This document shows, piece after piece, positions 6,001-12,000 of a stretch of DNA of 64,000 nt (position 1 is its first letter; each line of letters opens with the position of its first letter). Source of the stretch: Laetmonice hystrix. Its lineage: Eukaryota. The stretch covers positions 15,190,001-15,254,000 of the forward strand of contig OZ249444.1 of the NCBI GenBank assembly GCA_965235115.1, given 5' to 3'. The position numbers are program-made.

Positions 6001-9000
6001 ATGCCCTAAAAACACAGACCCAACAAATCTTCTCCATTGACCCAAAGACAATTCAAAAAACTGCAAAAAAACTAATAAAAATAAATACCCACTTAGACAG
6101 ATGGGAAACAGTGTAGCTCTCACTATAGCGATGAGCGTTCCGGAAAACCGGGAAAAACACACGAGGAAAAGAAAAGAAAAAAGGCTCCTCCAATCAGCAA
6201 ACCTTAACTCAGTCTGTGCAGTTCTCCGCTTTACTTAGTCGGTTGTAGCCAGCGCTTTGAGCGCATGACCTGTGACCCTGAAATAATGCAAGTCGTCCGT
6301 CGTTGTTATATTCACTGCACCCAGTTTCTCATACAGAGATATCGCCTTTTTGTTCCAGGACAGAGCCGCGAAGTCTAACTGCATACATTCTTTCTGAAGA
6401 GCAATCTAAAAGAAAGATAAAAGTGATTCATCTTGAGTTCCTTTTATGTTGTCATTCACGCAGTGTAGTAACTCTAGCGAAAGAAGGGTTCGTAAGTTAT
6501 CTGAACCCCCCCCCCCCCCCATGAAGTCTTTTCTCCCCCTAAAAAAATCCTACTGCTTCCTATTAATTTTCCGGTGGGAAGTGTAGCAGAACGTTCTTTG
6601 GTGTGAAATGGAAGTGTTTCGCAATGAGGTTTTCACGTTCTTGAAGATCATTGGAGTACTGTACAGTTATATTAGGTCTAACTTATACACAATAGCAGTC
6701 CGCCGTTGTCTGGTGGCATTACGGAGAGAAGAAGGCGACGAAGAAGAAGGGGGAGGGGGGGGGCGTTAGCACACCAACTGTTATTTTACATATGTAAGGA
6801 CAAGTCATTAAAAAATATAGTGCCAAATGTACACATTTTCCTGGCATCATGGAACAAAATTCAAGGTTTTGTACCAGTCTTAAGGCCTATAATAGTAGGC
6901 CTATGATACATTTTTCTGGGGCTCCACATCAGGGGTGGGGGTGGGGGCTGCCTCCTGCTATAACTACGGGCTCTCTTCTGCTGCCTTTGAACTGGGGGGC
7001 AAAATATAATGCTTGCCCCCCCAGCTTTAGACCTGGGGGGGGGGGGGTGGCCCTCTTGCCCCCCACCCGGTTCTGGCTCCTATAGATGCAAGTAACTTTT
7101 TCGCCTTATCCTACCTGGGCGATGTGGCGCCATATTGCCGTTCCAATGCCACGTGACCGGAAGTGGGGTTTGACGTAGAGGTCCTCCATGTATAATGACC
7201 GTCCCTGGTAGCTGTTGTAACTGAAGAAGTACAACCCGTAGGCCACCAGCTCTGGTCCTCCTGGACCCTGGACCTCGGCCACCAGGCACTCAAAGTATGG
7301 GGTCTTGCCAAAACCGTCCTCCTTCAGTACTGAAACAATGACGTGTGAACATATTTTGTGATACTGATCATCATTTAGGCTACTTCACTTTACATGGGCG
7401 CAGAAAACTAGAAAGGATAATTGTCATGAGCTACCATACCTGATTCAGTAATTGTCACTCTGTCTGACATATTTTCGAATGCAGCCAATTCCTGGAAGTT
7501 TAAAGCAAAATGCTACATAACCCAAGTAATACAGAATCAGGCAATAAGAAAACTAGTTTTATTGTAGCTGCAGTATATTTTAGTTGCACAGGGAGGAGTG
7601 CCACAAGCAGAGAATATGCTTTAGTTCTGTAGTTCTTGAAAACTAAAAGGAAAATAATCTTGTTGCCTAATCGTAGCAGACAACTTCAGGGTTTGAGGCC
7701 AAACGCGAGTAGGTCTATATCGACCTACATGTTGGAGGGGCTGTGCCCGTGGACGTGTAACTAAATGGAACGCTACACTAACATGAAAAAGTGGCTACCT
7801 TGATAAGACCAGCAATGCCGCCACAGTCTTCCCGTTGTGCAGGCCGGATGATGTATTCTGTCATTCTGTCTGTGCTGATCGGACCTAAGTGATGGAGTGC
7901 CAAAGGCGCAAAGTCTGGTGCTCTAGATTAGAGGCCCAGCCGACAACTATACTATGGCAAGTCACAAGTGCATTTAAGTTAAAGTTCAGGGCTATGCCTT
8001 TGGAGAAGCAGCCGTCATGAATATGTTAATGTGAACGGAGACCCATATAGTCACTTGCCAGCGGTTGAGAATGAGCGGGCAGGGGGTTAAACTGAAATAT
8101 CTTGGGGCGAGAGACGTTGGGGGGGGGGGGGGGGGAGGGGGGCGATGAAATAGACAAATAGGCCAGCTTTGTGACAGTCCCCTACAGTAAGAGGAAAAAG
8201 ATATTCAAAGAAGATTGTTAGAGCACAAAGGCAGGAATGGGTAATGTTCTTCGGGTTGCCTTGTTCCATTCTATATTCATATATCAAAGAAAATTTGGTT
8301 TAACATCATTTCTAATAGAATCGATAATAATATTCACATAACTATGATTAGATTTGGAGAGGGTAATGTCACAATATAACGGTTTGTCTCTTTATATAGA
8401 CATTGCATTGATTGGTCCTTACATAACTAAGGGTCCACCTCATTATAGGATGTACGTAACGTTCAGAGAAGTCACAAAAAGGTTACACAATTCCAGCTAC
8501 CTAAATATTGGAATCGGTGGGTGGGAGAGGGGATGAAGGGCCCAGGATGTTTGAGGTGATAATGAGGTTCCATTCCCCTGATATTTGGAGGGGTGATCCG
8601 TCTGGAGTGAGGACAACATCCTCAAGGACATCTTCATCTGCTTCCCGGAGTTTTGAAGGGTCCAGGTGTATAGGTGGGTTTAACGGGTATTCATTTTTCG
8701 TTACTATCCTGGTCCCCTGTGCCTACCATACGCATCCGCCATAATGTTAGGCCAGGTGCTGGCTGACCAAAAGCCGCGAAACGGAAGTGATAAAACTCCA
8801 AGCACTTCCGCTTCCGTTCCGTTGGTCAACGTTAACAGAGTGACCGACTTTTGCTTGGAGTGTAGCCGGGAGTGGCCAACATGCCCATGTGTACATGCAG
8901 ACCGTAGCAGGTGTGGGGACCGATGACGCTATGTTTACATCCAGAAAAGCGAGGACATTTAACATCTTGTTGGAGAAATACGGAGGGTACTGAACTACCT

Positions 9001-12000
9001 CGTTTGCGTCCATGTTTTCGATGGGCCAATCACAATGCTCGCTTTGATTAGCCTTCACCAGGCTCTATATACGTAGTCAATATAGACCTGGGGACCAGGC
9101 TATTTCCGTTACAAGCTGCTTACAGGAGTTCCTTTGATGAATGAAAAGAATTGAGTCGTAAAGACGCACTGGACAGACAACACAAGCCAATAATAATAAT
9201 GAGTGATTTCTGATAATTTATACATTTTCTTAATATGTTCCAACCGGGCGTATTCTTTTTGTTTGTAACACAATCTGAACTTGTGCCCAACCCATCCAAT
9301 CATTGAATCCCAAACTCATTTTCTGCGGTTCTCCTCTGCCAGGTTTCTCCAATCAGCAAACACTAACTCAGTCAGTGCTTTACTTAGTCGGTTGTAGCCA
9401 GCGCTTTGAGCGCATGACCTGTGACCCTGAAATGATGCCAGTCATCCGTCGTCGTTATATTCACTGCACCCAGTTTCTCATACAGAGATATCGCCTTTTT
9501 GTTCCAGGACAGAGCCTCGAAGTCTAACCGCTTACATTCTTTCTGAACAGCAATCTGAAAGAAAGATAAAAGTTATTCATCTTGAGTTTCATTTATGTTG
9601 TCATTCACGCAGTGTAGTAACTCAAGCGAAAGAAGGGTTCGTTTGGTGTCACCAAGCAAGTTATCTGAACTCCCCTCCCATGAAGTCTTTTCTCCCCCTG
9701 AAAAATCCTACTGCTCCATATTAATTTTCTGGTGGGAAGTGTAGTAGAACGTTGTAACGGTTCTTTGGTGTTCATATGTAAGGACAAGTAACTTTTTTGC
9801 CTTATCCTACCTGGGCGATGTGGCGCCACATTGCCGTTCCAATGCCACGTGACCGGAAGTGGGGTTTGACGTAGAGGTCCTCCATGTATAGTGACCGTCC
9901 CTGGAAGCTGCTGTAAGTGAAGAAGTACAACCCGTAGGCCACCAGCTCTGGTCCTCCTGGACCCTGGACCTCGGCCACCAGGCACTCAAAGTATGGGGTC
10001 TTGCCAAAACCGTCCTTCTTCAGTCCTGAAACAGAATATGACGTGCGAACATATTTTATGATACTGATCATCATTGTGGGGCGCTGTCATCTTATACTTG
10101 ACTTTACATGGGTGCAGAAAACTAAAAGGGATAATGAGCTACCATACCTGATTCAGTAATTGTCACTCTGTCTGACATATCTTCGAATTCAGCCAATTCC
10201 TGGAATTTTAAAGCAAAATGCTGCATACTAAGTTACCCAACTAATGCAGAATCAGGGAATAAGAAAACTAGTTTTATTGTCGCTGCAATCATATTTTATT
10301 TGCACAGGGAGGAGTGCCACAAGCAGAGAATATTCAGTAGTTCTGTAGGCCTAGTTGTTGAAAACTAAAAGGAAAACAACGTCAGCCCATCCATGGCTGT
10401 CCCCCCCCCCGATTGATTTTTTAGATGTTTGGTTTTGTTACCCAACGGCGCGCCATATCTCAAAGCTCTTGGGTGCCTTCATGGTTGGAGGCCAAACGCG
10501 AGTAGGTCTATATCGACCTACTTGTTGGAGGGGCTGTACTAAATGGAACGCTGCACTAACATGAAAAAGTGGTTACCTTGATAAGACCAGCAATGCCACC
10601 ACAGTCTTCCCGTTGTGCAGGCCGGATGATGTATTCTGCCATGGTGACTTCTGTCTGTGCTGATCGGACCTAAGTGATGGAGTGCCAAAGGCGCAAAGTC
10701 TGGTGCTCTAGATTAGAGGCTCAGCAGACAACCATACTATGGCAAGTCACAAGTGCATTTAAGTTAAAGTTCAGGCCTATGCCTTTGGGAAAGCAGCCGT
10801 CATGAATATGTTAATGTGAACGAGGACCCATATAGTCACTTGCCAGTGGTTGAGAATGAACCGACAGGGGGTTAAACTGAAATATCCTTGTGACAGCTCC
10901 CCTCCAGTAAGAGGAAAAAGATATGCAAAGAAGAATGTTTGAGCACAGAAGACAAGTAGGCTATGTGTATTGTATGGAATGCGTAATGTTCTTCGGGTTG
11001 CCTTGTTTCATTTTATATTCATATATCAAAGAAAATTTGGTTGAACATCGTTTCTAATAGAATCGATAAGAAAATTGACATAACTATGATCAGATTTGGA
11101 GAGGGTAATGTCACAATATAACGGTTTGTCTCTTTATATAGACATTGCATTGATTGATCTTAGTAACATAACTAAGGGTCCACCTCACTAAGGATGTACG
11201 TAACCTTCAGAGAGGTCACAAAAATGTTACACAATTCCAGCTCCCGAAATATTGGAATCGGTGAGTGGGAGAGGGGATGAAGGGCCCAGGATATGAGTAA
11301 AATGTTTGAAGTGATAATGAGGTTCCATTCCCCTGATATTTGGAGGGGTGATCCGTCTGGAGTGAGGACAGGATCCTCAAGAACATCTTCATCTGCTTCC
11401 CGGAGGTTGGAAGGGTTCACGGGTATAGGTGGGTTTCACGGGTATTCATTTTTCGGTACAAGCTGCTTACAGGAGTTCCTTTGATGAATGAAAAGAATAG
11501 AGTCGTAAAGACCCACTGGATAGACAACACAAGCCAATAAATATATGAATGAAAATACCCTGTTGTGTTACAGCAATTTACAAATACATGTATGTACGCA
11601 TTAATAATAATGAGTGATTTCTGAGAATTCATACATTTTCTTAATATGTTCCAACCGGACGTATTCTTTTTCTTTGTAACACCATCTGAACTTGTGCCCA
11701 ACCCATCCAATCATTGAATCCCAAACTCATTTTCTGCGGTTCTGTTCTGCAAGGCTCCTCCAATCAGCAAACCCTAACTCAGTCTGTGCAGTTCTCCGCT
11801 TAACCCTTGTAAGGGCACGTCCAGGGAGTTGCTTTGTAGGTCACAAGGTTTTTTTTGACCCCACATTTTAGGTTATCAAAACTTGCAAAATTTAAACAGA
11901 CAAGTGATTTAAAACACATTTTTTTTATTTGAACTAAACATTCTAAAGGCTTACCTGTACTAAAAACCCCTAATCAAAAATCATCTTAACACTTTTCGAA

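What the first reader, a model, noticed from the sequence alone, without database searches (positions are those of the whole stretch)
6235..10642. Young SAT duplicates diverge mainly at acceptor-pocket residues
Seen (hand count): copies A and B differ at 19 of 504 coding nt, 15 nonsynonymous and 4 synonymous. The changes map to positions equivalent to human SAT1 K26 (A/E), Y29 (N/D), T80 (S/T), D82 (N/S), W84 (Y/F), S123-S124 (MQ/KR), L128 (A/E), W154 (L/W) and L156 (Y/H). The acetyl-CoA loop RSRGIG and the Tyr140 equivalent are unchanged. Established: D82, W84, L128 and W154 lie in or near the polyamine-binding channel; the YSTW-type motif is SAT2/thialysine-like. Inference: substrate-specificity diversification (for example amine detoxification) rather than simple dosage, though a ratio near neutrality also fits relaxed selection on copy A.
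Basis: partly seen in the sequence, partly recalled or inferred. Interest (0 to 1): 0.65.

Follow-up and report, generated by a model that had tools for sequence, protein, structure and literature searches.

The report
Tandem acetyltransferase duplicates with diverged substrate pocket
Two intact neighbouring copies of a thialysine/diamine acetyltransferase-like gene sit beside a third, dead copy, and they differ disproportionately at residues lining the substrate pocket; this fits a shift in substrate preference in one copy, but nothing shows yet that this copy is expressed or active.

Summary
The count is confirmed. Two four-exon genes on the minus strand, A (7864-6235) and B (10642-9384), differ at 19 of 504 coding nt: 15 replacement and 4 silent changes, dN/dS about 1.1.

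- A third copy, C (14364-12434), is a dead remnant.
- Five further replacements exist, at codons 2, 40, 43, 105 and 114.
- The three copies have a mosaic history.

Tests run here:
- **Pocket enrichment:** 6 of 12 literature-defined pocket positions differ, against 9 of the other 155 (Fisher P=1.2e-4).
- **Rates:** pocket dN is 0.196 and the rest 0.025, against 0.061 for noncoding DNA.
- **Unchanged parts:** the catalytic Glu and Tyr and the acetyl-CoA loop are identical in both copies.
- **Direction:** outgroups put at least 7 replacements on A and 1 on B.
- **Di-arginine pair:** B keeps it (R120, R154); A has Q120 and L150.

Best reading (0.5): B is the ancestral-type enzyme and A has a remodelled, less charged acceptor pocket. 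Relaxed constraint on A (0.3) fits the totals but not their placement. The test is post hoc, and no search, fold or complex job used the joined protein. This is a new member of a known kind, of modest interest.

The parts
9384..10642 (-). Copy B, intact SSAT2/thialysine-acetyltransferase-like gene of 167 codons. Exons 10642-10577, 10199-10148, 10025-9811, 9554-9384.
   Evidence: open frame, GT-AG at all introns. (best solved relative is human SAT2, E=2.3e-19 for exon 3 and 6.5e-8 for exon 4). (Pfam Acetyltransf_1, 32.5 bits).
6235..7864 (-). Copy A, intact paralogue of 167 codons. Exons 7864-7799, 7491-7440, 7329-7115, 6405-6235. It is the more derived copy.
   Evidence: It scores 4.6 bits (exon 3) and 4.9 bits (exon 4) lower than B against an HMM of 52 homologues.
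14299..14364 (-). Copy C, exon 1 of a dead third copy. Its start context is GCCACCATGG.
   Evidence: 21 of 22 residues identical to B exon 1.
12434..12478 (-). Copy C, last 45 nt of exon 4 with the stop codon. Exons 2 and 3 and most of exon 4 are absent.
   Evidence: 42 of 45 nt identical to A and B.
12988..14064 (.). Element with 89-nt terminal inverted repeats (91% complementary), lying between the two remnants of copy C.
7865..8101 (-). Shared 5' flank of the repeat unit (A). The equivalents are 10643-10886 in B and 14365-14602 in C. A lacks 7 nt directly upstream of its ATG.
6596..7088 (-). A-specific stretch of 493 nt in intron 3. B has 31 nt here (9754-9784).
5375..6181 (+). A-specific insertion of about 807 nt that starts 54 nt downstream of A's stop codon. 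It has an A-rich end on the + strand and is absent from B and C. Calling it retroelement-like is my reading of its ORFs only.
   Evidence: ORFs. No Pfam match.
4583..5374 (-). Shared 3' flank of the repeat unit (A). The equivalents are 8234-9343 in B and 10976-11754 in C. Here A is closest to C, not to B.
   Evidence: site patterns: A=C 33, A=B 14, B=C 8.

Best explanation
This is a three-unit tandem array of an SSAT2/thialysine N-acetyltransferase-like GNAT gene in an unidentified intron-bearing eukaryote, evolving by birth and death. C is dead; A and B are intact. B keeps the ancestral acceptor pocket: S78, F80, W150 and the arginine pair R120+R154. In solved plant relatives that pair holds the acidic end of an amino-acid substrate. 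B is therefore probably the ordinary thialysine/lysine/diamine acetyltransferase. A keeps everything needed for acetyl transfer: the acetyl-CoA loop and the equivalents of the SAT1 general base E92 and general acid Y140. Most of the replacements fell on A, and they cluster on the pocket wall, which in the SAT1 dimer is supplied mostly by the partner subunit. These are T76S, S78N, F80Y, W150L and H152Y, plus R120Q and E124A on the neighbouring strand and E26A and D29N beside the catalytic-side E28. The result is a less charged pocket lacking one arginine of the pair, which should shift A's acceptor preference away from carboxylate-bearing or polycationic substrates. Shown here: anatomy, counts, enrichment, direction of change. 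Inferred: that A is expressed and active, and what it prefers.
For: - **Enrichment:** 6 of the 12 positions named as the SAT1 spermine site plus adjoining cavity in bioRxiv 10.1101/2024.10.18.618978 (passages) differ between A and B, against 9 of 155 others (Fisher P=1.2e-4). The 8-residue spermine site alone gives 3 of 8 (P=0.025), and the union with the SAT2 and NATA contact lists gives 7 of 17 (P=1.3e-4).
- **Against the family trend:** changed sites are not the variable ones (entropy 2.27 vs 2.02, P=0.37). An entropy-weighted null expects 0.8 overlaps and reached 6 in 0 of 100,000 draws.
- **Rates:** pocket dN 0.196 vs noncoding 0.061 (P=0.011); rest of protein 0.025 (P=0.003).
- **Frame kept:** no indel in 504 coding nt against 17 in about 1709 aligned noncoding nt (expected 5.0, P=0.007). 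All splice sites are intact.
- **Catalytic set unchanged:** RSRGIG, E88, D89 and Y136 are identical in both copies (roles from passages of PMC4964394).
- **Direction:** C, P0009, P0082, P0038 and P0067 give A as derived at 2, 76, 78, 80, 105, 120 and 150, and B as derived at 43. B fits the family HMM better by 4.6 and 4.9 bits.
- **Structure:** in an AlphaFold model of the nearest full-length relative P0038 (pLDDT 90.2), positions 76/78, 120/124 and 150/152 lie on strands at even spacing, so on one face.
- **Arginine pair:** R120 and R154 align with the two arginines of 2FE7, 12JC and 8YV7, with the spacing the paper gives.
- **L150 occurs naturally:** it is found in 10 of 118 homologous domains.
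Against: - Overall dN/dS of 1.1 cannot be told apart from neutrality.
- A fully relaxed A with a constrained B predicts about 13-14 replacements, close to the 15 seen (my arithmetic).
- If only A were relaxed, the expected number of coding indels is about 2.5 (P of none about 0.08). The chance of no stop after 19 random substitutions is 0.41. An open frame is therefore weak evidence.
- S78N and W150L hit strongly conserved positions, and N78 is not among the seven commonest residues in 195 homologous domains.
- A has lost 7 nt before its ATG, gained 493 nt in intron 3 and gained an 807-nt insertion 54 nt past its stop.
It also comes from a docking study on 2B58, mapped here by sequence alignment only.
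- Polarity at 29, 40, 119, 124 and 152 is unresolved. The count of 7 vs 1 gives only P=0.07.
- The primary SSAT1 structure papers were not held.
Confidence: 0.5

Rival explanations
1. Copy A is redundant and drifts under relaxed constraint, as a young pseudogene in the making like copy C before it. The pocket pattern would be chance, or loss of constraint showing most where constraint used to be strongest.
For: - dN/dS is 1.1, and the totals match a relaxed A plus a constrained B (arithmetic).
- Most polarised changes lie on A.
- A changes S78 and W150, which are conserved in 161 of 195 and 78 of 118 domains, and fits the family HMM worse.
- A carries three structural changes in its 5' leader, intron 3 and 3' flank.
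- The array has already lost one member, C.
Against: - Relaxation predicts replacements spread evenly. Instead 6 of 12 pocket positions and 9 of 155 others changed (P=1.2e-4).
- Non-pocket dN is only 0.42 of the noncoding rate (P=0.003).
- There is no indel or stop in 504 nt, and all splice sites are kept.
- The catalytic and CoA-binding residues are untouched.
Confidence: 0.3
2. The clusters of differences were brought in by gene conversion or unequal crossing-over from a more diverged array member. On this view the array is older than it looks, and the differences do not reflect point substitutions since a recent duplication.
For: - The three copies have conflicting relationships. In the 5' flank, exon 1 and intron 1 the site patterns are A=B 15, A=C 9, B=C 9. 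In the 3' UTR and 3' flank they are A=C 33, A=B 14, B=C 8.
- Three of the 4 silent differences (codons 85, 145, 148) lie within 5 codons of pocket replacements.
- Exon divergence (3.8%) is below intron divergence (6.9%, P=0.03), as homogenisation would give.
Against: - The 19 differences are not significantly clustered along the coding sequence (P=0.17).
- No donor sequence exists in the window. tblastn finds only A, B and the C remnants, and C lacks the relevant exons.
- The even spacing of changes on strands points to selection on one face rather than to a conversion tract.
- This rival explains where the changes came from, not why they sit in the pocket, so it can coexist with the best explanation.
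Confidence: 0.15
3. The 'duplicates' are an assembly artefact: two haplotypes of one gene placed in tandem.
For: Nothing direct. The only point in favour is that 4-6% divergence is within the range of haplotype divergence in some highly polymorphic invertebrates (general knowledge, not tested here).
Against: - The window has no N.
- There are three units, with different insertions and a decayed member.
- The unit junctions are continuous sequence.
- The mosaic relationships are what a real array gives.
Confidence: 0.03

Closest known systems
Human SAT2 / SSAT2 (thialysine N-epsilon-acetyltransferase; PDB 2BEI, 2Q4V)
   Same: It is the best solved sequence match for exons 3 and 4 of both copies. 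Length is about the same (167 vs 170 residues). The CoA loop, the E/D pair and the catalytic Tyr align. B shares E26 and S78 (= SAT2 S82).
   Different: SAT2 R126 is modelled as binding the substrate carboxylate, and R126C is reported inactive (bioRxiv 10.64898/2026.05.22.727066, passages). Both copies have D122 there. SAT2 has Q and C where B has the arginine pair. The motif is YSTW in SAT2, YSSF in B and YNSY in A.
Caenorhabditis elegans thialysine N-epsilon-acetyltransferase (PDB 8YV7) and the bacterial entries 12JC and 2FE7
   Same: Arginines align with B's R120 and R154, and a Trp aligns with W150. B's exon 4 scores 35.1 bits against 8YV7 and 31 bits against 12JC.
   Different: Copy A scores lower (31.2 and 21.6 bits) because it has Q120 and L150. 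Overall identity is low.
Arabidopsis NATA1/NATA2 paralogues (PMC13740378)
   Same: They are two SSAT-family paralogues in one genome. The pocket is built by both subunits of a dimer. A di-arginine motif sits at the distal end and binds the acidic group of ornithine (passages).
   Different: The paper reports that NATA1 and NATA2 have largely similar broad substrate profiles and keep both arginines. Here one copy has lost an arginine and the pocket Trp. These are plant enzymes with an extra insert.
Zebrafish ssat1a/b/c (PMC3543422)
   Same: This is a lineage-specific duplication of an SSAT gene with two copies adjacent, all reported as transcribed and active (abstract and section 13).
   Different: Those are SSAT1 genes. 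The paper finds ssat1 only in vertebrates and places invertebrate ssat-like genes with SSAT2. Their reported divergence concerns translation control, stability and partners, not the pocket.

Membership tests
GNAT superfamily | Match to a GNAT acetyltransferase profile above the curated cut-off | tested here: met
   Pfam PF00583 scores 32.5 bits (B exon 3) and 31.9 bits (A exon 3) against a cut-off of 20.7. Exon 4 alone matches no Pfam model.
GNAT superfamily | Acetyl-CoA pyrophosphate-binding loop (the general form of the motif is recalled, not taken from a call) | tested here: met
   RSRGIG is present and identical in both copies. It aligns with the corresponding loop of SAT1 and SAT2.
SSAT family (SAT1/SAT2/thialysine acetyltransferases) | Closest solved relatives are SSAT-family enzymes over the whole length | tested here: met
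   Exon by exon, SAT2 2BEI is the top hit for exons 2, 3 and 4, followed by SAT1 entries, 8YV7, 12JC and 2FE7. The model of the nearest full-length relative P0038 matches SSAT1 and SSAT2 chains at probability 1.0 and TM about 0.8 normalised by target. The joined A and B proteins were not folded.
SSAT family | Equivalents of the general base E92 and general acid Y140 (roles from passages of PMC4964394) | tested here: met
   E88, D89 and Y136 are present in both copies.
Vertebrate SSAT1 (polyamine N1-acetyltransferase) | SAT1-type pocket residues D82 and W84, and closer similarity to SAT1 than to SAT2 | tested here: not met
   These positions are S/N78 and F/Y80. SAT1 scores are lower than SAT2 scores (54-55 vs 72.5 bits for exon 3; 24 vs 35.6 bits for exon 4). 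PMC3543422 reports ssat1 only in vertebrates.
Mammalian-type SSAT2 | S82/T83 and R126 contacting the amino-acid end of the substrate (Boltz-2 model in bioRxiv 10.64898/2026.05.22.727066) | tested here: not met
   B has S78 and S79; A has N78 and S79. Both have D122 at the R126 position.
Di-arginine type SSAT (plant, moss, bacterial; PMC13740378) | Two arginines 31 residues apart in the short-loop forms, the second 4 residues after the pocket Trp | tested here: met
   B has R120, W150 and R154, which align with the R, W and R of 2FE7, 12JC and 8YV7. The spacing is 34 with a 3-residue longer loop. Copy A does not meet the feature (Q120, L150, R154). Which residues of 2FE7 form the motif is inferred from the spacing. 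The paper's supplementary alignment could not be seen.
SSAT family | Strand-swapped homodimer with the pocket at the subunit interface | not tested
   This would need the joined proteins, and that step was left out.
SSAT family | Acetyl transfer to thialysine, lysine, diamines or polyamines | not testable with these tools
   This needs enzyme assays.

The most novel reading that the evidence does not exclude
The array is older than its 4-6% divergence suggests. Gene conversion and unequal crossing-over keep homogenising the units, which would explain the mosaic A/B/C relationships, while selection holds the pocket differences in place. SSAT pockets are built from both subunits, and 5 of the 6 changed pocket positions are those the partner subunit supplies. 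Co-expressed A and B could therefore form heterodimers, so two genes would give more than two kinds of active site.
Probability: 0.1. Interest if true: 0.55.

Novelty: new member of a known kind. Interest (0 to 1): 0.3.

Why it matters
If A is active with a different acceptor preference, this pair would be a compact natural experiment. About seven substitutions on one wall of an SSAT-family pocket would retune specificity while the catalytic core stays fixed. That is directly testable by swapping residues between two proteins that are 91% identical (152 of 167 residues). It would also add an animal case to the open question of what SSAT2-like enzymes do outside vertebrates. If A is merely decaying, the locus is an ordinary birth-and-death array.

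Tried and rejected
- **Naming the organism or finding close orthologues failed.** The word-index search found only 3 reptile SAT2-like proteins at 53-56% identity ('longer'). It also found one unnamed 80-residue ENA protein at 73% ('near') and only P0009 itself when P0009 was the query.
- **Primary SSAT1 structure papers were not held** (PMC1360125 and PMC2518666). A search for them by residue names found nothing.
- **Two-domain homologues as evidence for an old two-type array: dropped.** P0134 looked like a parallel, with one domain carrying F80/W150 and the other Y80/L150. It is only 36-42% identical to exon 3 and looks microbial. It shows only that L150 is tolerated.
- **Clustering of the 19 differences as a sign of conversion tracts:** not significant (P=0.17).
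- **Poly(A) signals:** there is no AATAAA or ATTAAA in B's 1.27-kb 3' flank, so the effect of A's insertion on its 3' end cannot be judged.
- **Left out:** no search, structure prediction or complex prediction used the spliced (joined) A or B protein. The heterodimer idea, and a pocket definition on these very proteins, therefore stay unchecked.
- **Human origin:** I do not take the contig for human. Its best human match is a diverged SAT2 alignment.

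
Full report
**What is there.** The window has no N and reads as eukaryotic DNA with spliced genes. On the minus strand lie two complete four-exon genes of 504 coding nt each.
- Copy A has exons 7864-7799, 7491-7440, 7329-7115 and 6405-6235.
- Copy B has exons 10642-10577, 10199-10148, 10025-9811 and 9554-9384.

All introns are GT-AG and there are no internal stops. Exon 3 of both copies passes the Pfam GNAT model. Searched exon by exon, the best solved relative is human SAT2 (2BEI): E=2.3e-19 for exon 3, 6.5e-8 for exon 4, and a weak but ungapped match for exon 2. 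Next come the SAT1 entries, the C. elegans thialysine acetyltransferase 8YV7 and the bacterial entries 12JC and 2FE7. No search, fold or complex prediction used the joined protein; that step was left out.

**The count.** A and B differ at 19 of 504 nt: 15 replacement and 4 silent changes. That gives dN 0.040, dS 0.036 and a ratio of 1.12, which cannot be told apart from 1. It listed 10 of the 15 replacements; those at codons 2, 40, 43, 105 and 114 were omitted. The RSRGIG loop, E88/D89 (SAT1 E92/D93) and Y136 (SAT1 Y140) are identical in both copies. The roles of E92 and Y140 come from passages of PMC4964394.

- **A third copy.** Copy C survives only as exon 1 (14364-14299) and the last 45 nt of exon 4 (12478-12434). 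The DNA between them holds an element with 89-nt inverted ends.
- **The repeat unit.** It runs from about 240 nt upstream of the ATG to about 1.1 kb past the stop.
- **A-specific changes.** A lacks 7 nt just before its ATG, has 493 nt where B has 31 in intron 3, and has an insertion of about 807 nt starting 54 nt after its stop.
- **Conflicting relationships.** In the 5' part the site patterns are A=B 15, A=C 9, B=C 9. In the 3' UTR and 3' flank they are A=C 33, A=B 14, B=C 8. The array therefore has a recombinant history and is not a simple recent pair.

**Neutral yardstick.** Aligned noncoding DNA of A and B differs at 96 of 1579 positions (6.1%; introns 40 of 580, 6.9%). Exons differ at 19 of 504 (3.8%; P=0.056 against all noncoding DNA and 0.031 against introns). 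The noncoding alignments hold 17 indels in about 1709 nt, while the coding sequence holds none (expected 5.0, P=0.007). If only A had been free to drift, the expectation is about 2.5 indels (P about 0.08). Nineteen random substitutions leave the frame open 41% of the time. The open frame is therefore only modest evidence for function.

**The pocket test.** A preprint that docks ligands into human SAT1 (PDB 2B58) names the spermine site and an adjoining cavity (bioRxiv 10.1101/2024.10.18.618978, passages). Together they comprise residues 28, 78, 80, 82, 84, 88, 90, 92, 93, 128, 154 and 156.
- **Overlap.** In our numbering, 6 of these 12 positions differ between A and B, against 9 of the other 155 (P=1.2e-4). 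The narrower 8-residue spermine site gives 3 of 8 (P=0.025).
- **Wider list.** The union with SAT2 model contacts and NATA contacts gives 7 of 17 (P=1.3e-4).
- **Not the variable sites.** The changed sites are not the family's variable ones (P=0.37). A null weighted by variability expects 0.8 overlaps and reached 6 in 0 of 100,000 draws.
- **Rates.** Pocket dN is 0.196 against 0.061 for noncoding DNA (P=0.011). The rest of the protein is at 0.025 (P=0.003).
- **Caveats.** The test is post hoc. The mapping rests on sequence alignment. The primary structure papers were not held.

**Direction of change.** No close orthologue could be found. The nearest relatives are unnamed: P0009 at 70% and P0082 at 73% over exon 3, and P0038 at 55% over exon 4.
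- With these relatives and copy C, A is derived at codons 2, 76, 78, 80, 105, 120 and 150, and more weakly at 26 and 114.
- B is derived at codon 43.
- Codons 29, 40, 119, 124 and 152 are unresolved.
- The count of 7 vs 1 gives P=0.07; with the weak calls, 9 vs 1 gives P=0.02.
- B fits an HMM of 52 homologues better by 4.6 bits (exon 3) and 4.9 bits (exon 4).

[quoted passage not shown] - **The arginine pair.** B's R120 and R154 align with the arginines of 2FE7, 12JC and 8YV7. The second lies four residues after the pocket Trp, as in NATA2. A has Q120 and L150. R...R is the majority state among 203 homologous domains: R at 120 in 77 of 137 and R at 154 in 82 of 115.
- **Not a mammalian-type SAT2.** The SAT2 residue R126, modelled as the carboxylate binder, is D122 in both copies.
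- **Lost charges.** A also loses charges at 26, 29, 119 and 124.
- **Strand geometry.** In an AlphaFold model of P0038 (pLDDT 90.2), positions 76/78, 120/124 and 150/152 sit on strands at even spacing, so on one face. That model matches SSAT1 and SSAT2 chains.
- **Which subunit.** By the preprint's subunit labels, five of the six changed pocket positions are supplied by the partner subunit.

I infer that B is the ancestral-type thialysine/lysine/diamine acetyltransferase, and that A has a less charged pocket with altered acceptor preference. Neither activity nor expression was tested.

**Rivals.**
- **Relaxed constraint on A (0.3).** It explains the totals, the asymmetry and the hits at conserved positions: S in 161 of 195 domains at 78, and W in 78 of 118 at 150. 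It does not explain the placement of the changes or the constrained remainder of the protein.
- **Import of clusters by conversion (0.15).** It fits the mosaic flanks and the silent changes next to pocket changes. However, clustering is not significant (P=0.17) and the window holds no donor.
- **Assembly artefact (0.03).** This is unlikely.

**Comparison and novelty.** Lineage-specific SSAT duplicates are known. Zebrafish ssat1a/b/c are all reported as active, and that paper places invertebrate ssat-like genes with SSAT2 (PMC3543422, abstract and section 13). Arabidopsis NATA1 and NATA2 are another pair (PMC13740378). Among the 152 closest library proteins, 46 carry two SSAT domains, so tandem copies look common in this family. 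This locus is a new member of a known kind. Its one notable feature is how strongly the few differences concentrate on one wall of the pocket. I searched the literature for SSAT paralogue divergence and found no description of this locus, but the organism is unknown, so this claim is weak. Supplementary files, including the NATA alignment that marks the two arginines, could not be seen.

Noticed in passing
window 12434-14364 (-): Third, dead copy of the gene. Exon 1 and the last 45 nt of exon 4 remain; exons 2 and 3 and most of exon 4 are gone. About 630 nt are inserted directly after its stop codon, before the shared 3' UTR resumes at 11804.
   Followed up: yes
window 12988-14064: Element bounded by 89-nt inverted repeats (91% complementary, arms rich in a short ATTCGA-like repeat), lying inside what was intron 1 of copy C.
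   Followed up: partly
window 5375-6181 (+): A-specific insertion 54 nt past copy A's stop, with an A-rich 3' end on the + strand and lysine-rich ORFs. It has no Pfam match; calling it retroelement-like is only my reading.
   Followed up: partly
window 17022-19855 (+): Neighbouring ionotropic glutamate receptor-like gene: Lig_chan-Glu_bd at 17022-17321 and Lig_chan at 18503-19084. Between these exons lies a 44-nt tandem array of 18 copies (17359-18163) that stays open in three frames.
   Followed up: partly
window 1271-1821; 24413-25428; 33712-33891; 39663-40013; 49606-50001: Further tandem arrays of 55, 50, 31, 15 and 20 nt units. Their meaning is unknown.
   Followed up: no
proteins P0004-P0152: Of the 152 closest library proteins, 46 carry two SSAT domains. 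In several of them (P0007, P0017, P0053, P0134) one domain has W and the other L at the position of our residue 150. These may be true fusions or fused gene models of tandem copies.
   Followed up: partly
window 8111-9383 (-): There is no AATAAA or ATTAAA hexamer in the 1.27 kb downstream of copy B's stop codon.
   Followed up: no
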